Assembly (NCBI RefSeq): GCF_003334305.1
Contig: NZ_QOWS01000020.1
DNA: 64,000 nucleotides
Strand: one strand, 5' to 3'
DNA from: Escherichia coli
GTDB lineage: Bacteria > Pseudomonadota > Gammaproteobacteria > Enterobacterales > Enterobacteriaceae
Part shown: one piece after another, positions 5,876 through 12,301 of the stretch
Position numbering within the stretch: the first letter of the stretch is position 1
How the letters are laid out: every line of letters begins with the position of its first letter
The notes under the pieces: generated by a model
The model's input: only the letters and a program-made list of their open reading frames with translations
Told to the model about the DNA's origin: nothing
Databases searched by the model: none
Translations under genes and position numbers: made by a program

Positions 5876-7414
5876 ATGACCAATAATCCCCCTTCAGCAC
5901 AGATTAAGCCCGGCGAGTATGGTTTCCCCCTCAAGTTAAAAGCCCGCTATGACAACTTTATTGGCGGCGAATGGGTAGCCCCTGCCGACGGCGAGTATTA
6001 CCAGAATCTGACGCCGGTGACCGGGCAGCTGCTGTGCGAAGTGGCGTCTTCGGGCAAACGAGACATCGATCTGGCGCTGGATGCTGCGCACAAAGTGAAA
6101 GATAAATGGGCGCACACCTCGGTGCAGGATCGCGCGGCGATTCTGTTTAAGATTGCCGATCGAATGGAACAAAACCTTGAGCTGTTAGCGACGGCTGAAA
6201 CCTGGGATAACGGCAAACCCATTCGCGAAACCAGTGCTGCCGACGTGCCGCTGGCGATTGACCATTTTCGCTATTTCGCCTCGTGTATTCGGGCGCAGGA
6301 AGGTGGGATCAGTGAAGTTGATAGCGAAACCGTGGCCTATCATTTCCATGAACCGTTAGGCGTGGTGGGGCAGATTATCCCGTGGAACTTCCCGCTGCTG
6401 ATGGCGAGCTGGAAAATGGCTCCCGCGCTGGCGGCGGGCAACTGTGTGGTGCTGAAACCCGCACGTCTTACCCCGCTTTCTGTACTACTGCTAATGGAAA
6501 TCGTCGGTGATTTACTGCCGCCGGGCGTGGTGAACGTGGTCAACGGCGCAGGTGGGGAAATTGGCGAATATCTGGCGACCTCGAAACGCATCGCCAAAGT
6601 GGCGTTTACCGGCTCAACGGAAGTGGGCCAACAAATTATGCAATACGCCACGCAAAACATTATTCCGGTGACGCTGGAGCTGGGCGGCAAATCGCCAAAT
6701 ATCTTCTTTGCTGATGTGATGGATGAAGAAGATGCCTTTTTCGATAAAGCGCTGGAAGGCTTTGCACTGTTTGCCTTTAACCAGGGTGAAGTTTGCACCT
6801 GTCCGAGTCGTGCCTTAGTGCAGGAGTCAATCTACGAACGCTTTATGGAACGCGCCATCCGCCGTGTCGAAAGCATTCGCAGCGGTAACCCACTCGACAG
6901 CGTGACGCAAATGGGCGCGCAGGTTTCTCACGGGCAACTGGAAACCATCCTCAACTACATTGATATCGGTAAAAAAGAGGGCGCAGACGTGCTCACCGGC
7001 GGGCGGCGCAAGCTGCTGGAAGGTGAACTGAAAGACGGCTACTACCTCGAACCGACGATTCTGTTTGGTCAGAACAATATGCGGGTGTTCCAGGAGGAGA
7101 TTTTTGGCCCGGTGCTGGCGGTGACCACCTTCAAAACGATGGAAGAAGCGCTGGAGCTGGCGAACGATACGCAATATGGCCTGGGCGCGGGCGTCTGGAG
7201 CCGCAACGGTAATCTGGCCTATAAGATGGGGCGCGGCATACAGGCTGGGCGCGTGTGGACCAACTGTTATCACGCTTACCCGGCACATGCTGCGTTTGGT
7301 GGCTACAAACAATCAGGTATCGGTCGCGAAACCCACAAGATGATGCTGGAGCATTACCAGCAAACCAAGTGCCTGCTGGTGAGCTACTCGGATAAACCGT
7401 TGGGGCTGTTCTGA
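5876..7414 (+). CDS. aldB: NADP-dependent aldehyde dehydrogenase B
   Basis: ORF track starts at 5738 but conserved protein begins [11 protein letters not shown] at ATG 5876 with SD aaggaga upstream; 512 aa; ALDH catalytic motifs. Confidence 0.9.
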
Positions 7415-7444
7415 TATAAGAAGCTGGTCGCATTGGGTATTCAT

Positions 7445-7526
7445 TGCCTGATGCGACGCTTACGCGTCTTATCATGCCTACGGGAACCTGACCGTAGGCC
7501 GGATAAGGCGTACACGCCGCATCCGG
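7445..7526. repeat. REP/BIME element (two inverted REP units) downstream of aldB
   Basis: gcctgatgcgacgcttacgcgtcttatcatgcctac ... gtaggccggataaggcgtacacgccgcatccggc read directly. Confidence 0.75.
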
Positions 7527-7632
7527 CATAAACAAAGCGCACGTTGTTACAATTTACGTTTTAAACCTACGTGCGCAATAACCCAGACTACGCCAACAGA
7601 AGTGCGTTTCTGGGGCGTGTTTTGTCAGGAGT

Positions 7633-7776
7633 TTAATCTCGCGTTTCGATGGTGAGCGGGCGAACCAGGCCGTAAATCACCATTGGTGATCCGAGGCCAA
7701 TCAGCAATAAACGGTAGATAATTGAAGGTTTAATACGCTTAATCTGTACTGTGGATGTTTTACTGGAGTTATTCAT
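7633..7776 (-). CDS. hypothetical small single-pass membrane protein (47 aa from internal ATG; ORF track gives 70 aa to 7845)
   Basis: ORF MNNSSKTSTVQIKRIKPSIIYRLLLIGLGSPMVIYGLVRPLTIETRD with one ~20-residue hydrophobic helix; no obvious SD; intergenic location. Confidence 0.2.
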   Translation of the reverse strand: MNNSSKTSTVQIKRIKPSIIYRLLLIGLGSPMVIYGLVRPLTIETRD

Positions 7777-7958
7777 TAGTTTGGCCAATAGTTCCACTAT
7801 TTCAATATGATAAACCTCGTCCTGTTGAAAAACCAGACAGCACATTTAAGAAAGTATATAAAAAACAATATGTCGTTATATAAATAAGGAAATTGCACTG
7901 CATCATGGCATTTCATAATATGCGTTAATTGTTCTTTTTTATATTCTTTGAGGGAAAT

Positions 7959-8282
7959 ATGTTCCTGGACTATTTTGCACTGGGAGTGCTTATTTTTGTA
8001 TTTCTGGTGATCTTCTATGGGATCATTATTTTACATGATATTCCCTACCTGATTGCCAAAAAACGTAATCATCCTCATGCCGACGCCATTCATGTTGCTG
8101 GTTGGGTGAGTCTTTTTACGTTACATGTTATCTGGCCGTTTTTGTGGATTTGGGCCACGCTTTACCGCCCGGAGCGGGGATGGGGAATGCAAAGCCATGA
8201 TTCATCCGTTATGCAACTGCAACAGCGCATTGCCGGGCTGGAGAAACAGCTCGCCGACATCAAATCCTCTTCTGCCGAGTAA
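7959..8282 (+). CDS. yiaW: small inner-membrane protein (DUF3302 family)
   Basis: 107 aa from ATG 7959 preceded by agggaaat; two hydrophobic helices; 5 nt upstream of yiaV. Confidence 0.8.
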
Positions 8283-8287
8283 TACTT

Positions 8288-9424
8288 ATGGATTTACTGA
8301 TTATTTTGACCTATGTGGCTTTTGCATGGGCAATGTTTAAGATCTTCAAAATTCCCGTAAATAAATGGACCATTCCCACAGCGGCCCTGGGTGGAATATT
8401 TATTGTCAGCGGTCTAATTCTGTTAATGAACTATAACCATCCGTATACCTTCAAAGCGCAAAAAGCGGTTATTTCTATTCCTGTTGTCCCACAGGTGACA
8501 GGCGTGGTGATCGAAGTGACGGATAAGAAAAATACGCTGATTAAAAAAGGTGAGGTGCTATTTCGACTGGACCCGACGCGTTATCAGGCGCGGGTGGATC
8601 GGCTGATGGCGGATATCGTTACCGCAGAACATAAACAGCGGGCGTTGGGCGCAGAGTTAGATGAGATGGCGGCGAATACTCAGCAGGCAAAGGCCACGCG
8701 GGATAAATTCGCTAAAGAGTATCAGCGTTACGCACGCGGCAGCCAGGCGAAAGTAAACCCGTTTTCAGAACGCGATATTGATGTGGCGCGGCAAAATTAT
8801 CTGGCGCAGGAAGCCTCCGTAAAGTCATCGGCGGCGGAACAAAAACAGATCCAGAGCCAGCTGGATAGCCTGGTGTTGGGTGAACATTCTCAAATCGCCA
8901 GCCTGAAAGCGCAGCTCGCGGAAGCAAAATATAACCTTGAGCAGACGATAGTGCGTGCGCCGAGCGATGGTTATGTGACCCAGGTGCTGATTCGTCCGGG
9001 TACCTATGCCGCGTCGCTGCCGCTACGTCCGGTGATGGTGTTTATACCCGATCAGAAACGACAAATTGTGGCGCAGTTCCGTCAGAACTCCTTGCTGCGA
9101 CTGGCCCCTGGCGACGATGCGGAAGTGGTGTTTAACGCTCTGCCAGGCAAAGTGTTCAGCGGTAAGCTGGCAGCCATTAGTCCAGCTGTTCCCGGCGGAG
9201 CTTATCAGTCGACCGGCACCTTACAGACGTTAAACACAGCGCCGGGTTCAGATGGCGTTATCGCGACCATTGAACTGGATGAGCACACTGATTTGAGCGC
9301 TTTACCAGACGGTATTTACGCCCAGGTGGCGGTCTACTCTGATCATTTCAGCCATGTCTCGGTGATGCGCAAAGTGCTGTTACGCATGACCAGTTGGGTG
9401 CATTACCTTTATCTCGATCATTAA
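8288..9424 (+). CDS. yiaV: membrane-fusion (HlyD/EmrA-family) periplasmic adaptor protein
   Basis: 378 aa; N-terminal TM anchor then long coiled-coil-type region; synteny with yiaW. Confidence 0.85.
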
Positions 9425-10395
9425 TCTTCGCTTTCCGCCGCTTGTTCAGGCCGCAGTTGCTGCGACTGAGCAAGCTGGTGGCGAATTTCACGCAGCATTT
9501 CATCCAGCACATACTGGACCCGCCAGGGCTGGTATTCCCGTTTACGGAAGATAGCCACCAGATCCAGCCACCATTCATACGGGTGCTGAAAGCAGGGCAC
9601 CAGCGTGCCGTCTTGCAGATCGCTCTGCACACTTTTGTCTGGCGCAAACACAATCCCCAGGTGATTTCGTGCCAGCTCCAGCGCCGATTGCGTGTTATCG
9701 CAAACGTAATTTCCCTTCACGCGATAATCCCGCACCTCTTTACTCCCGGCGACGTTGAAGCGCCAGATATTCGCGTCATCAATCATCATCGAGTCGATCA
9801 AAATACAGGAGTGATGTTCGAGTTCGTCAGGACGGCTAATAGGATGTTTCTCAAGATAGCGCTGGCTGGCATAAGCGGTTACGGCATATTGGGTAATAAA
9901 ACTGGCAACCAGCGATTCATCTTTTGGTGGAGCGTAGCTGATTAAAACATCACAATCATCAGGAAATTCGACGCCTTCATAAAAGGCATTACGCTCAAGA
10001 TTGCAGGTTTTTAGCGATAAGGTGATATCACCGATATCTTTAATTTTATCGATTACATGTTTGGATAAATAGGTAATTATGCCGGTTGGGGCGTAGATGG
10101 TGACCCGACCACGTTTCTCATGCTTATAATCTGCAATAAAATTATTAAGCTGCTCGTTTCTGTCCAGCATGTCGTTGATGTACGGTAACAGCGCGGTGCC
10201 AAAAGGTGTGAGCATCAGTTGTCGGGTGGTTCGGTCAAAAACTTTTAAACCCACTTTTGATTCAAAATCAGCAAGATATTTGCTGACGTTGGCCTGTGCG
10301 ATGCCAAGTACAGTCGCGGCATGGCTGATATTTTCACTGGCAGCGATTACCGAGATAATTTTTAACTCCCGGTACTTAAGTTGTAATTTTGTCAT
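9421..10395 (-). CDS. yiaU: LysR-family transcriptional regulator
   Basis: 324 aa; N-terminal HTH typical of LysR; 3' end overlaps yiaV 3' end by 4 bp. Confidence 0.85.
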
Positions 10396-10518
10396 CGCAA
10401 CAGCCCAATTATATATAATTTTATATATTACTATATAAATATGAATCTTGCATCGGAGAAATTGTAAGCATTATTATGCCGACTCTTTTTTATCTTATTT
10501 TAAAATGGAATACCGGAC

Positions 10519-11259
10519 ATGTTAATTAATCGCAATATTGTGGCGTTATTTGCGTTGCCTTTTATGGCAAGCGCAACTGCTTCTGAATTATCCATTGGTG
10601 CTGGTGCAGCTTATAATGAATCGCCTTATCGCGGTTATAATGAAAATACAAAGGCAATTCCGCTGATTAGTTATGAAGGTGATTCTTTTTATGTTCGTCA
10701 GACCACATTAGGTTTTATTCTGTCGCAAAGTGAAAAAAATGAACTTAGCCTGACCGCATCCTGGATGCCGCTGGAATTTGACCCTGCCGATAATGACGAT
10801 TATGCCATGCAACAGCTTGATAAGCGTGATAGTACGGCTATGGCGGGGGTTGCCTGGTATCACCACGAGCGTTGGGGAACCGTGAAAGCCTCTGCGGCTG
10901 CGGACGTTCTGGATAACAGCAACGGCTGGGTGGGGGAGCTATCGGTATTCCACAAAATGCAGATAGGTCGCCTGTCGCTGACACCTGCGCTGGGCGTTCT
11001 CTATTATGACGAGAATTTCAGTGACTATTACTATGGCATTTCAGAGAGTGAGTCCCGTCGTAGCGGTCTGGCAAGTTATTCCGCGCAGGATGCCTGGGTG
11101 CCCTATGTCAGCCTGACGGCAAAATACCCGATAGGAGAGCACGTCGTATTGATGGCGAGTGCAGGATACAGCGAGCTGCCGGAAGAGATTACCGACAGCC
11201 CGATGATTGATCGTAATGAGAGTTTTACCTTTGTCACCGGCGTGAGCTGGCGTTTTTAA
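10519..11259 (+). CDS. yiaT: outer-membrane protein, MipA/OmpV family
   Basis: 246 aa with signal peptide (MLINRNIVALFALPFMASATA) and C-terminal aromatic residue (…VSWRF). Confidence 0.8.
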   Translation: MLINRNIVALFALPFMASATASELSIGAGAAYNESPYRGYNENTKAIPLISYEGDSFYVRQTTLGFILSQSEKNELSLTASWMPLEFDPADNDDYAMQQLDKRDSTAMAGVAWYHHERWGTVKASAAADVLDNSNGWVGELSVFHKMQIGRLSLTPALGVLYYDENFSDYYYGISESESRRSGLASYSAQDAWVPYVSLTAKYPIGEHVVLMASAGYSELPEEITDSPMIDRNESFTFVTGVSWRF

Positions 11260-11605
11260 TTCACCGGTGGATGTCGGTGCGGCTGGTGCTCCGTCGTAAT
11301 GCCACAAAGGTTGTTGCTCTGGATTGCTCTGTTCATACCGGGAACCTGGCGTCTGAATCAGGATCTTATGGCTGAACAATCCCTTGCCTTCAAATGTCGT
11401 AAATGGCGCATCGGCGGGCAGCAACAGGTTATGCAGTGACTCGACGTTGTCGGCCTGCTCCATGCAATACGGTTTAATGACGTTGGCTATTTCCGGCAGA
11501 TTTTTCGCAAGCACACCGGTTTAACGCCAGCAGCGTGGAAGCGGCGTTACAGCAAGGAACATATCAATTCGTAGTGCCGGGGCGATGAAGCCCCGGCGTG
11601 AGGGA

Positions 11606-12301
11606 TTACTGCCCGTAATAGGCATTGGCCCCATGCTTACGCAGGTAGTGCTTATCCAGCAGTTCGTTTTGCATCGCAGGGAGCTGCGGCGCAAGCTGGC
11701 GCGAGAATAGGCCCATATAGGCGCATTCTTCGAGTACTACGGCGTTATGCACGGCATCGGCGGCGTTTTTACCCCATGCGAACGGGCCATGAGAATGCAC
11801 CAGCACCGCCGGGATTTGTGCCGGACTCCTGCCACGTTCTTCGAAGGTTTCAATGATCACTTCGCCGGTCTGATATTCATATTCGCCGTTAATCTCCTCT
11901 GCGGTCATCTGTCGCGTGCAGGGGATGGCACCATAGAAATAATCAGCGTGCGTGGTGCCCCAGGCGGGGAGATCCAGCCCGGCCTGCGACCAGATGGTGG
12001 CGTGGCGTGAGTGGGTATGCACAATGCCACCGATTTCGGCGTAGCGACGGTAAAGCGCCAGATGCGTTGGCGTGTCGGACGAGGGCTTTTTGCTACCTTC
12101 CACCACCTTGCCGCTGGCTATCTCAACCACCACCATATCGTCGGCGGTCATCACGTCGTACTCGACGCCGGAAGGTTTGATTACCATCCATTGCCGCGTG
12201 TCGTCTACCGCGCTGACATTGCCCCAGGTGAACGTCACCAGATGGTGAGCGGGAAGCGCCAGATTCGCCGCCAGCACGTCGGCTTTCAGTTGCTCTAACA
12301 T
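11606..12301 (-). CDS. sgbE: L-ribulose-5-phosphate 4-epimerase
   Basis: 231 aa class II aldolase/epimerase; last gene of yiaK-S operon. Confidence 0.85.

What the first reader, a model, noticed from the sequence alone, without database searches (positions are those of the whole stretch)
7959..11259. yiaW-yiaV membrane-fusion pair with LysR regulator and MipA-like OMP but no transporter in cis
A DUF3302-type small membrane protein (yiaW, 107 aa) is followed 5 nt later by an HlyD/EmrA-family adaptor (yiaV, 378 aa). A LysR regulator (yiaU) converges on it with a 4-bp 3' overlap, and an OmpV/MipA-family outer membrane protein (yiaT) follows. The layout resembles aaeR-aaeXAB (LysR, small membrane protein, adaptor, pump), but the inner-membrane pump is missing. 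Either the adaptor uses a transporter encoded elsewhere or the pair has a non-efflux role; the function is essentially uncharacterised.
Basis: partly seen in the sequence, partly recalled or inferred. Interest (0 to 1): 0.4.

Follow-up and report, generated by a model that had tools for sequence, protein, structure and literature searches.

The report
Pump-less adaptor pair yiaW–yiaV
The E. coli genes yiaW and yiaV are one copy of a widespread, always-paired module (a tiny histidine-capped membrane hairpin plus an EmrA-like periplasmic adaptor) that in other bacteria sits in operons with a TolC-like outer-membrane channel but never with a conventional efflux pump, so the 'missing pump' is a trait of the whole family, not a deletion.

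Summary
yiaW (DUF3302, 107 aa) lies 5 nt before yiaV (378 aa). yiaU converges on yiaV with a 4-bp overlap, yiaT follows, and no transporter is encoded in cis.

The aaeR-aaeXAB analogy is only superficial.
- YiaV is a true EmrA-fold adaptor, but a distinct subfamily with two N-terminal TM helices and a conserved C-terminal helix.
- YiaW shows no homology to AaeX.
- yiaU-yiaT is an independent older unit. It occurs without yiaWV in Enterobacter, and YiaU is reported to regulate yiaT.
- yiaWV is a local duplicate of yibIH (77%/75% identity).

In about 120 pairs, from about 160 DUF3302 genes sampled, the adaptor directly follows DUF3302, and no ABC/RND/MFS/FUSC pump shares the operon. Outside the enterics, a dedicated TolC-like lipoprotein is co-operonic in at least 8 lineages. 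An orthologous short NhaP-type cation/proton antiporter is adjacent in 5 lineages, in four arrangements.

The best reading is a separate class of adaptor/outer-membrane-channel system. Its inner-membrane partner would be the DUF3302 hairpin itself or a cation/proton antiporter. In E. coli it would use TolC in trans. The substrate is unknown; neighbouring genes hint at cations. Interest is moderate, and I rate it a new variant of a known kind.

The parts
7777..7958 (+). AT-rich upstream region of yiaW. It holds a weak sigma-70-like site (TGGCCA-18-TATGAT, 7782-7811) and the Shine-Dalgarno GAGGGA (7950-7955).
   Evidence: Sequence read; promoter scan. That scan found 8 sites against 6.5 expected by chance, so the promoter is not established.
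7959..8282 (+). yiaW: a DUF3302 two-helix membrane hairpin. H26, D27, R36, H38, P39, H40, D42 and H45 cluster at the hairpin tip, and a separate C-terminal helix follows.
   Evidence: ORF. Pfam E 2.7e-43. AF2 pLDDT 90, with helices 2-35, 41-68 and 80-105. Conservation over 369 sequences. No PDB fold match.
8283..8287 (+). 5-nt yiaW-yiaV spacer. The two genes are probably translationally coupled.
   Evidence: The same 2-5 nt gap or 4-nt overlap is seen in about 120 pairs from other genomes.
8288..9424 (+). yiaV: an EmrA-fold periplasmic adaptor. It has two N-terminal TM helices joined by the [11 protein letters not shown] turn, a lipoyl domain, a 122-residue alpha-hairpin, a beta-barrel, and a conserved C-terminal helix (355-371). 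It has no membrane-proximal domain.
   Evidence: Pfam. NCBIfam 112 bits against cut-offs of 376 and 390.8. PDB EmrA by sequence, E 7.5e-12. AF2 pLDDT 82.9. Foldseek top hits are EmrA of EmrAB-TolC, E about 1e-21, TM 0.60-0.66. Family invariants. Comparison with AaeA and EmrA.
9421..10395 (-). yiaU (LpsR): a LysR regulator, convergent on yiaV with a 4-bp overlap. It is a neighbour and most likely not part of the yiaWV system.
   Evidence: It is reported to regulate the divergent yiaT (PMC9068703). It occurs with yiaT but without yiaWV in other genera. Listed as a convergent excludon with yiaV (PMC12288877).
10396..10518 (.). yiaU-yiaT divergent control region (123 bp).
   Evidence: Promoter-like sites fall here on the minus strand. 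The LysR-target arrangement is conserved in Enterobacter and Lelliottia.
10519..11259 (+). yiaT: a MipA/OmpV-family outer-membrane protein and the target of YiaU. It is a neighbour and not demonstrably part of the yiaWV system.
   Evidence: The OmpV match is 94.8 bits, below the equivalog cut-off of 400.

Best explanation
yiaW-yiaV is one of two E. coli copies (the other is yibI-yibH) of an obligate two-gene inner-membrane module.

The two proteins:
- YiaW is a 2-TM helical hairpin whose tip carries an almost invariant His/Asp cluster.
- YiaV is an EmrA-fold periplasmic adaptor. It has its own two-helix membrane anchor and a conserved C-terminal helix.

The module defines a separate class of adaptor/outer-membrane-factor systems that never encodes an ABC, RND, MFS or FUSC pump.

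Likely mechanism (inferred):
1. YiaV oligomerises like EmrA.
2. YiaW holds and completes it in the inner membrane.
3. Its long EmrA-length hairpin docks to an outer-membrane factor. In E. coli this would be unlinked TolC, as for the other E. coli systems. In many other bacteria it is a dedicated lipoprotein OMF encoded in the same operon.
4. The inner-membrane working part is either the DUF3302 ring itself or a cation/proton antiporter. A short NhaP-type CPA1 is adjacent in several lineages; none is linked in E. coli.

The substrate is unknown. Neighbouring genes hint at cation, osmotic or pH homeostasis.

yiaU-yiaT is a separate, older regulatory unit. A duplicate of yibIH was inserted next to it.

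Shown: the pairing, the fold, the family signatures, the OMF and CPA1 linkage, and the absence of pumps. Inferred: the physical complex, OMF docking in E. coli, and the transport function.
For: Pairing:
- The adaptor directly follows DUF3302 in essentially every locus with DNA available, about 120 pairs. They fall in at least 6 unrelated enteric contexts and about 30 non-enteric lineages.
- All 270 DUF3302 proteins listed are 242 aa or shorter, and those listed with Pfam annotation carry only PF11742. No fusion to another domain was seen.

Fold:
- The AF2 model of YiaV (pLDDT 82.9) best matches EmrA chains from the EmrAB-TolC cryo-EM structures.

Distinct subfamily:
- Two N-terminal TM helices, the FK[IV]FK[IV]P[VL]NKW turn and the C-terminal R361/R366/W370 helix are conserved down to 36% identity.
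- These elements are absent from EmrA and AaeA.
- NCBIfam scores lie far below every curated adaptor cut-off.

OMF linkage:
- OEP-DUF3302-adaptor or DUF3302-adaptor-OEP operons with gaps of -1 to 17 nt occur in L076-79, L082/83, L084/89/92, L086, L087, L095, L103 and L178/179.
- These OMFs form their own subfamily, and most carry lipoprotein signals.
- Within two gene positions of the pair, 10 of 70 genes are OMFs, against 1 of 96 further away (Fisher p about 9e-4).

No pump:
- No FUSC, MFS, ABC or RND gene is in any of these operons.
- L084 carries a complete FUSC-OMF-DUF1656-adaptor operon 2 kb from a separate DUF3302-adaptor-OMF operon.

CPA1 linkage:
- An orthologous short antiporter (34-60% identity between lineages) is adjacent in 5 lineages, in four arrangements.
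- 9 of 70 nearby genes are CPA genes (8 of this CPA1 group plus the unrelated CPA2 gene of L075), against 0 of 96 further away (p about 3e-4).
- The reciprocal look-ups confirm the adjacency.
- The closest non-enteric relative of YiaV (46% identity) belongs to a CPA1-linked lineage.

DUF3302 constraint:
- H26, D27, R36, H38, P39, H40, D42 and H45 are at least 80-90% conserved across 369 sequences. They sit at the hairpin tip in a pLDDT-90 model.

Physiology:
- yibI is induced 5.6-fold in urine, and a yibI deletion mutant is outcompeted there (CI 0.33; PMC5404293).
Against: - No experiment shows a YiaW-YiaV or YiaV-TolC interaction, or any transported substrate.
- A 2-TM hairpin has no known energy-coupling mechanism.
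- In enterics, neither an OMF nor a CPA1 gene is linked.
- The hairpin tip keeps the conserved Ser/Asp but not the full R-L-S docking motif.
- yiaWV is dispensable. It is absent from about 30% of complete E. coli genomes and is hit by IS1. yiaW and yibH mutants show little phenotype.
- The non-enteric sample is small and biased: about 30 lineages, many on short metagenomic contigs, and not phylogenetically independent.
- Two well-flanked lineages have neither an OMF nor a CPA gene nearby.
- In L082 a MacB-type permease gene lies two genes upstream.
Confidence: 0.55

Rival explanations
1. Orphan adaptor borrowing a canonical pump. YiaWV (and YibIH) would be spare adaptors that pair in trans with an MFS, ABC or FUSC transporter encoded elsewhere in E. 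coli. YiaW would be an accessory subunit, comparable to AcrZ or AaeX.
For: YiaV has an EmrA-like fold and hairpin length. Its best family matches are the MdtN and EmrA/EmrK adaptors. OMFs already act in trans in E. coli (established knowledge; tabulated in PMC8277102).
Against: Adaptor genes are normally linked to their pump. Here no canonical pump is linked in any of about 40 lineages, even where the OMF is co-operonic. L084 keeps a complete FUSC system separate from the DUF3302 system. The unusual two-helix anchor and C-terminal helix co-occur strictly with DUF3302, not with any pump family.
Confidence: 0.2
2. Non-conduit role in ion or envelope homeostasis. The pair would regulate or scaffold cation transporters or channels (a CPA1 antiporter, K+ or MscS channels), or sense envelope state, without forming an export tube. 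At least in enterics, this would be without an OMF.
For: Neighbouring genes recur as cation-related: CPA1 in 5 lineages, CPA2 in L075, Ion_trans_2 in L084 and L168-171, MscS in L170, CorA in L178. DUF3302 has a His/Asp-rich cap. yibI shows urine induction and a fitness effect there. A yiaW deletion raises Ca2+-mediated transformation efficiency (cited in PMC12844161).
Against: A dedicated OMF is co-operonic in at least 8 lineages. The adaptor keeps the full lipoyl, hairpin and barrel architecture. Both argue for a trans-envelope assembly. Apart from CPA1, the cation-gene neighbours are single cases.
Confidence: 0.15
3. Dispensable or decaying genes in E. coli. yiaWV would be a redundant recent duplicate with no current function.
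For: yiaWV is absent from about 30% of complete E. coli genomes, where another cassette occupies the site. There are IS1 insertions and an IS1-mediated deletion. The yibH locus is used as an integration site for expression cassettes in engineered E. coli strains.
Against: The sequence aligns over at least 80% of its length, at 95-100% nucleotide identity, in 3770 genomes. All family-invariant residues are retained. Orthologues are kept across Citrobacter and Pseudocitrobacter at 84-92%.
Confidence: 0.07
4. One reading: a degenerate aaeR-aaeXAB-type operon under YiaU control that has lost its pump gene.
For: There is a superficial layout similarity: a small membrane protein, an adaptor, and a nearby LysR gene.
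Against: DUF3302 is unrelated to DUF1656. No FUSC remnant is present. yiaU is convergent, is paired with yiaT, pre-dates the yiaWV insertion, and scores only 33.8 bits against the AaeR model, whose cut-off is 425. Pump absence is family-wide.
Confidence: 0.03

Closest known systems
EmrAB-TolC (MFS-type tripartite efflux pump; EmrA adaptor, PDB 8ZAL/8ZAR/4TKO)
   Same: YiaV has the same domain set as EmrA: a lipoyl domain, a long alpha-hairpin and a beta-barrel, with no membrane-proximal domain. EmrA chains are the best structural match (E about 1e-21, TM 0.60-0.66) and the best PDB sequence match. Both are anchored in the inner membrane by N-terminal helices, and the OMF is unlinked in E. coli.
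   Different: There is no MFS pump gene. YiaV is only about 20% identical to EmrA and scores far below the EmrA/EmrK cut-off (112 against 390.8 bits). It has two N-terminal TM helices instead of one, plus a conserved C-terminal helix. It has an obligate DUF3302 partner.
AaeXAB / YdhIJK / MdtNOP (small membrane protein + adaptor + FUSC-type pump, with AaeR LysR regulator)
   Same: The gene order matches: a small 2-TM protein immediately upstream of an EmrA-like adaptor. A LysR gene lies nearby. An OMF is co-operonic in some non-enteric versions (L084).
   Different: The small protein is DUF3302, not DUF1656, with no detectable homology. There is no FUSC pump. The LysR gene is convergent and serves yiaT. 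The two systems coexist as separate operons in one genome (L084).
Small accessory subunits of tripartite pumps (AcrZ with AcrB; YbjP lipoprotein with TolC)
   Same: Each is a short membrane or envelope protein associated with an adaptor/OMF machine.
   Different: Those subunits bind a large pump or TolC and are dispensable accessories. DUF3302 is the only inner-membrane protein encoded with the adaptor, and it is far more conserved, at 60-80% identity across phyla.
NhaP/CvrA-type CPA1 K+(Na+)/H+ antiporters
   Same: The recurrent neighbour matches PF00999 and the NhaP2/CvrA models and carries the TDAA, ESGLNDG and FGPRG motifs.
   Different: It is about 400 aa, with a membrane domain only and no C-terminal regulatory domain. 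It scores 127-142 bits against a cut-off of 355. It has no PDB relative at E<=1e-5. The review of tripartite systems read here lists only ABC, RND and MFS partners, and I know of no CPA transporter reported to work with an adaptor/OMF. No such gene is linked in E. coli.

Membership tests
Periplasmic adaptor / membrane fusion protein (HlyD-EmrA type) | Lipoyl + alpha-hairpin + beta-barrel fold | tested here: met
   Pfam CusB_dom_1 and HlyD_D23. AF2 pLDDT 82.9 with all three domains. Foldseek top hits are EmrA, MacA and AcrA.
Periplasmic adaptor / membrane fusion protein (HlyD-EmrA type) | N-terminal inner-membrane anchor | tested here: met
   Helices 2-19 and 28-50. This is a variant form, with two helices where EmrA and AaeA have one.
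Periplasmic adaptor / membrane fusion protein (HlyD-EmrA type) | Gene adjacent to its inner-membrane transporter (ABC, RND, MFS or FUSC) | tested here: not met
   None was found in the window, in about 70 enteric loci, or in about 50 non-enteric loci.
Periplasmic adaptor / membrane fusion protein (HlyD-EmrA type) | Works with a TolC-family OMF (genetic linkage, or the hairpin-tip R-L-S motif) | tested here: inconclusive
   An OMF is co-operonic in at least 8 non-enteric lineages but not in E. coli. The tip keeps the conserved Ser/Asp, while the Leu of the R-L-S motif is not conserved. Physical docking was not tested.
EmrA/EmrK subfamily (TIGR00998) and MdtN (NF007785) | Score above the curated NCBIfam cut-off | tested here: not met
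   112.0 bits against 390.8, and 112.2 bits against 376.
AaeXAB-type (FUSC/PET) system | Small subunit of the DUF1656/AaeX family | tested here: not met
   0 of 30 DUF3302 members hit DUF1656. hhalign of A1 against AaeX gives probability 0.1%.
AaeXAB-type (FUSC/PET) system | FUSC pump gene downstream of the adaptor | tested here: not met
   yiaU follows yiaV. The only FUSC hit in any locus belongs to a separate operon in L084.
AaeXAB-type (FUSC/PET) system | Divergent AaeR-type LysR activator | tested here: not met
   yiaU is convergent. The AaeR model scores 33.8 bits against a cut-off of 425. The reported target is yiaT. yiaU-yiaT exists without yiaWV.
DUF3302 (PF11742) | Match to the Pfam model over its full length | tested here: met
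   E 2.7e-43, covering model positions 1-76 of 77. All 30 diverse members also match.
MipA/OmpV outer-membrane proteins (YiaT) | Family-level HMM match or equivalog cut-off | tested here: inconclusive
   The OmpV model matches at E 5.9e-27, but at 94.8 bits, below the equivalog cut-off of 400. RefSeq names it MipA/OmpV family. Family membership is likely; it is not an OmpV equivalog.
Anti-phage defence systems / phage protein families | Match to PADLOC or a functional PHROG | tested here: not met
   PADLOC gives 0 hits for both proteins. PHROGs gives only unknown-function and coiled-coil-like hits for YiaV.

The most novel reading that the evidence does not exclude
DUF3302 + YiaV-type adaptor + OMF would be a previously unrecognised class of trans-envelope machine, alongside the ABC, RND, MFS and FUSC types. 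Its inner-membrane component would be a ring of His/Asp-capped 2-TM hairpins. In some lineages a short CPA1 cation/proton antiporter would energise or feed it. The machine would move cations or protons, or vent periplasmic solutes, across the outer membrane. E. coli would carry two such systems, YiaWV and YibIH, working through TolC.
Probability: 0.3. Interest if true: 0.8.

Novelty: new variant of a known kind. Interest (0 to 1): 0.55.

Why it matters
Tripartite envelope-spanning systems are central to efflux, resistance and secretion. They are currently classified by their inner-membrane engine: ABC, RND, MFS or FUSC.

YiaV and YibH are two adaptor-family proteins of E. coli K-12 with no assigned partner or function. 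The tripartite-systems review never mentions them, and the 2024 y-ome survey lists yibH and yibI in a cluster of uncharacterised genes.

Three results turn a vague 'orphan' into a defined, testable system:
- The pair always comes with a specific, extremely conserved 2-TM protein.
- It often comes with its own OMF.
- It never comes with a canonical pump.

The tests follow directly: TolC dependence, YiaW-YiaV stoichiometry, the role of the His/Asp cap, and cation, pH or osmotic phenotypes. The urine fitness defect of the yibI deletion mutant is a starting point.

If the recurrent CPA1 antiporter really is a partner, the repertoire of transporters known to couple to adaptors and OMFs would widen.

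Tried and rejected
- **DUF3302 related to AaeX/DUF1656.** Rejected. The Pfam scan of 30 members gave no hit, and hhalign gave probability 0.1%.
- **YiaU as the dedicated regulator of yiaWV.** Not supported. yiaU is convergent on yiaV. Published ChIP-exo and RNA-seq data point to yiaT and the waa genes. yiaU-yiaT occurs without yiaWV. YiaU-like LysR genes lie beside other copies in only 3 loci, at 34-36% identity. LysR genes are very common, so this is uninformative.
- **Defence-system or phage origin.** No PADLOC hit and no informative PHROG hit.
- **Fold search for YiaW.** No significant PDB match. The best hit is GldL at E = 2.
- **PDB relatives of the short CPA1.** None at E<=1e-5.
- **Junction alignment of aldB/yiaU against yiaV/yiaU.** It shows only a shared TTAA stop overlap and is uninformative.
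- **Other polytopic neighbours as the pump.** The candidates were a NosR/NapH-like 410-aa protein, a DASS fragment, a TRAP DctQM protein, a MacB-type permease in L082 and DUF1538 in L176. Each occurs in a single lineage, most are unrelated to export, and none recurs.
- **The L075 CPA neighbour.** It is a CPA2 protein unrelated to the CPA1 group, so it was not counted as the same association.
- **First near/far enrichment test.** It was biased by loci ascertained through the CPA1 protein. It was redone without them.
- **Rfam scan of 7000-12000.** Only sub-threshold REP/naRNA4 matches.


Full report
**1. What is in the window**

The window is E. coli chromosome, 100% identical to several complete genomes.
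- yiaW: 7959-8282 (+), 107 aa.
- yiaV: 8288-9424 (+), 378 aa, after a 5-nt gap.
- yiaU: 9421-10395 (-), 324 aa, overlapping yiaV by 4 bp. The overlap is a TTAA containing both stop codons.
- yiaT: 10519-11259 (+), 246 aa, divergent from yiaU.

RefSeq annotates them as a DUF3302 protein, a HlyD-family protein, a LysR regulator and a MipA/OmpV protein. Pfam and NCBIfam agree.

The flanks are yiaY-aldB upstream and the sgb/yiaK-S sugar-acid operon downstream. No efflux transporter is nearby.

**2. YiaV is a real adaptor, but of its own kind**

By sequence, YiaV's nearest relatives are the MdtN and EmrA/EmrK adaptors, but at 112 bits against curated cut-offs of 376-391.

An AlphaFold2 model built on 48 DUF3302-linked adaptors has mean pLDDT 82.9. 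Its elements are:
- two N-terminal TM helices (2-19, 28-50);
- a split lipoyl domain;
- a hairpin of two helices of about 56 residues each;
- a beta-barrel;
- a C-terminal helix (355-371);
- no membrane-proximal domain.

Foldseek places EmrA chains from the EmrAB-TolC cryo-EM structures on top (E about 1e-21, TM 0.60-0.66), followed by MacA and AcrA.

It differs from E. coli EmrA and AaeA, with about 20% identity to each. Those have one TM helix and lack the C-terminal helix. YiaV-type adaptors keep the following even at 36% identity:
- TM1, then FK[IV]FK[IV]P[VL]NKW, then TM2;
- an [IV][IM]RK[VI]LLRMxSWxNY helix with invariant R361, R366 and W370.

**3. YiaW**

DUF3302 is a compact family of 881 clusters at 50% identity. 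Its 80-residue core is 60-80% identical across phyla.

AF2 models YiaW at pLDDT 90:
- a long helical hairpin (2-35 and 41-68), with the turn at R36-N-H-P-H40;
- a linker;
- a separate helix (80-105).

Over 369 sequences, H26, D27, P29, R36, H38, P39, H40, D42, H45, W49, S51, W59, P60, W63 and W65 are at least 80-90% conserved. The result is a His/Asp-rich cap projecting from the membrane. For a 2-TM protein this is an unusually strong constraint and implies a functional site, either proton or metal binding or a tight protein interface.

There is no fold match in the PDB. There is no relationship to AaeX/DUF1656.

**4. The pair is obligate, and duplicated in E. coli**

E. coli has a second pair, yibI-yibH, 17 kb away across an Rhs element. 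It is 75% and 77% identical to yiaW and yiaV and also has no pump.

In 72 species-representative genome loci, the adaptor follows DUF3302 with a 2-5 nt gap or a 4-nt overlap wherever the DNA is present.

Enteric synteny shows the following.
- The ancestral locus is mtlA | yibIH | yibF-selAB.
- yiaWV is a duplicate placed after aldB, found only in Escherichia, Citrobacter and Pseudocitrobacter.
- Serratia, Yersinia, Rahnella, Buttiauxella, Budvicia and Pantoea carry the pair in other, unrelated contexts.
- No polytopic protein recurs next to it.

**5. yiaU-yiaT is a separate unit**

- In Enterobacter, Lelliottia and Leclercia, aldB is followed directly by convergent yiaU and divergent yiaT, with no yiaWV.
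- Published ChIP-exo and RNA-seq data assign YiaU (LpsR) to yiaT and the waa operon. yiaT rises 2.8 log2 in a yiaU deletion mutant, and yiaWV is not reported (PMC9068703).
- YiaU scores 33.8 bits against the AaeR model, whose cut-off is 425.

The aaeR-aaeXAB analogy therefore fails on every defining feature.

A regulatory interaction by convergent transcription remains possible, since yiaU-yiaV is listed among convergent 'excludons' (PMC12288877).

Within E. coli the four genes behave as one indel block.
- yiaWV is present in 3801 of 5426 complete genomes.
- The strain examined that lacks the block (E14) carries a GH127-MFS-AraC cassette at the site.
- The window strain retains only a truncated AraC fragment of that cassette.

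**6. Beyond the enterics: the central result**

I used the most distant DUF3302 representatives and one metagenome scan. Neighbours were annotated with HMMs built from Pfam-labelled genes. I found three patterns.

(a) The adaptor is again directly downstream of DUF3302.

(b) A TolC-like OMF (PF02321) is in the same operon in at least 8 independent lineages.
- The gene order is either OMF-W-V or W-V-OMF, with gaps of -1 to 17 nt.
- These OMFs form a coherent subfamily. They are 28-57% identical to each other, against 19-25% to the FUSC-system OMF of the same genome.
- Most carry lipoprotein signals.
- They always accompany adaptors with a short, 60-residue hairpin. Enteric-type adaptors have a 120-122-residue hairpin, which is EmrA-like.

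(c) No FUSC, MFS, ABC or RND gene is ever in the operon.

L084 is diagnostic. It holds a complete FUSC-OMF-DUF1656-adaptor operon and, 2 kb away, a separate DUF3302-adaptor-OMF operon.

That is not what the data show. Pump absence is a property of the family.

**7. A recurrent cation/proton antiporter**

A short (about 400 aa) NhaP/CvrA-like CPA1 gene lies beside the pair in five lineages, in four arrangements:
- W-V-OMF-CPA1 on one strand (L084, L089, L092);
- CPA1-W-V (L100, L116);
- convergent and overlapping (L130, L153);
- convergent, one gene away (L156).

These proteins are orthologous, at 34-60% identity between lineages with shared TDAA, ESGLNDG and FGPRG motifs. The CPA2 neighbour in L075 is unrelated.

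I ran an enrichment control on 50 non-identical loci ascertained only through DUF3302 (the loci are not fully independent):

| Gene type | Within two positions of the pair | Further away | Fisher p |
|---|---|---|---|
| CPA (8 CPA1 + the L075 CPA2) | 9 of 70 | 0 of 96 | about 3e-4 |
| OMF | 10 of 70 | 1 of 96 | about 9e-4 |

Reciprocally, CPA1 homologues at about 80% identity, in Woeseiaceae-type genomes, again converge on a W-V operon.

Other neighbours are also cation-related: Ion_trans_2 K+-channel domains, an MscS channel and CorA. I treat those as hints only.

The lineage with the convergent CPA1 has the adaptor closest to YiaV outside the enterics (46% identity, same length, same YLYLDH end).

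**8. Mechanism**

Shown:
- an obligate DUF3302-adaptor pair;
- the EmrA fold;
- subfamily-specific membrane elements;
- OMF and CPA1 linkage in relatives;
- no canonical pump.

Inferred:
- YiaV oligomerises like EmrA.
- Its two TM helices and C-terminal helix engage YiaW hairpins in the inner membrane.
- The hairpin docks an OMF, which in E. coli would be TolC in trans.
- The inner-membrane working part is the DUF3302 assembly or a cation/proton antiporter.

The substrate is unknown. The His/Asp cap, the CPA1 linkage and the urine phenotype of yibI (5.6-fold induction, CI 0.33; PMC5404293) point weakly to cation, pH or osmotic homeostasis.

Against this reading:
- there is no biochemical evidence;
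- a 2-TM protein has no precedent as a transporter engine;
- the pair is dispensable in E. coli;
- the comparative sample is modest and biased.

I put 0.55 on the 'distinct adaptor/OMF system with a DUF3302 partner' reading.

**9. Novelty and literature**

- The genes themselves are long-annotated y-genes.
- DUF3302 appears in only two searchable papers, neither of them functional.
- The comprehensive review of tripartite systems lists ABC, RND and MFS (plus AaeAB and MdtNOP) partners. It does not mention YiaV, YibH or CPA transporters.
- The y-ome survey lists yibH and yibI in a cluster of uncharacterised genes.

The family-level picture appears not to have been described in the literature I could search: an obligate DUF3302 partner, a dedicated OMF, no pump, and a recurrent CPA1. 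I rate it a new variant of a known kind, of moderate interest.

**10. Caveats on method**

- Neighbour genes in un-annotated loci were called with a simple longest-ORF procedure.
- They were labelled with small home-made HMMs and hydropathy counts.
- Many metagenomic contigs are short.
- Lineages were dereplicated at 80% DUF3302 identity, not by phylogeny.
- Topology (which side the YiaW cap faces) rests on the positive-inside rule only.

Noticed in passing
window 7404-7577: There are three overlapping REP-type repeats just after aldB. They match Rfam naRNA4 (RF02564) below the gathering score (33-40 bits against 59.5).
   Followed up: no
window 7636-7776 (-): A 47-aa ORF is annotated as a hypothetical protein (WP_001066080.1). 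It has one hydrophobic segment and lies antisense in the aldB-yiaW spacer. Its 135-member protein cluster carries only E. coli, Shigella or Enterobacteriaceae names among the members listed. Function unknown.
   Followed up: partly
window 11281-11574: This stretch holds remnants of another cassette: a partial hypothetical gene (11281-11469, -) and the C-terminal fragment of an AraC regulator (11473-11574, +). About 30% of complete E. coli genomes lack yiaWVUT; in the strain I examined (L173), the site between aldB and araD holds GH127 hydrolase-MFS transporter-AraC instead.
   Followed up: partly
L002 14259-15760 (same chromosome, about 17 kb from yiaW, outside the window): The paralogous pair yibI-yibH is 75% and 77% identical to yiaW and yiaV. 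It sits between mtlA and an Rhs/immunity-gene cluster. It is the ancestral copy, syntenic across Enterobacteriaceae.
   Followed up: yes
L172 (NZ_CP028166.1); hit H9 (NZ_CM177971.1): IS1 activity affects this locus. One strain has an IS1-bounded deletion from yiaW to yiaO. Another has IS1A inserted within yiaWV. An IS1 insertion in yiaW also arose during experimental evolution with macrophages (PMC5495878).
   Followed up: partly
L084 957-5851 and 8001-11933: One MAG contig carries two systems 2 kb apart. The first is a FUSC-OMF-DUF1656-adaptor operon. The second is a DUF3302-adaptor-OMF-CPA1 operon. An Ion_trans_2 K+-channel-domain gene lies upstream. It is a natural side-by-side comparison of the two systems.
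   Followed up: partly
L168-L171; L170 6972-8552; L178 5912-6847: Cation-channel genes lie next to DUF3302-adaptor operons. Ion_trans_2 is beside the CPA1 gene. An MscS-type channel is divergent from DUF3302 in L170. CorA is divergent from DUF3302 in L178. A conserved 111-aa ORF of unknown function follows the adaptor in L168-L171.
   Followed up: no
L125 2838-4091; L176/L177 8539-9792; L178 10524-11900: A glutamate dehydrogenase gene recurs one or two genes downstream of the DUF3302-adaptor(-OMF) operon in several marine or hydrothermal lineages. This may simply be shared synteny.
   Followed up: no
window 9421-9424; L067 18108-18111: yiaU ends in a 4-bp tail-to-tail overlap with whatever gene precedes it: yiaV in E. 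coli, and aldB in Enterobacter mori, Lelliottia and Leclercia. In E. coli the overlap is a TTAA holding both stop codons.
   Followed up: partly
L048 (433-bp contig labelled Myxococcus) and L018 (labelled Chryseobacterium): Enteric-type yiaW sequences (71-83% identical) appear in assemblies labelled as unrelated phyla. L018 has full enteric synteny. These are probably contamination or mislabelled assemblies.
   Followed up: no
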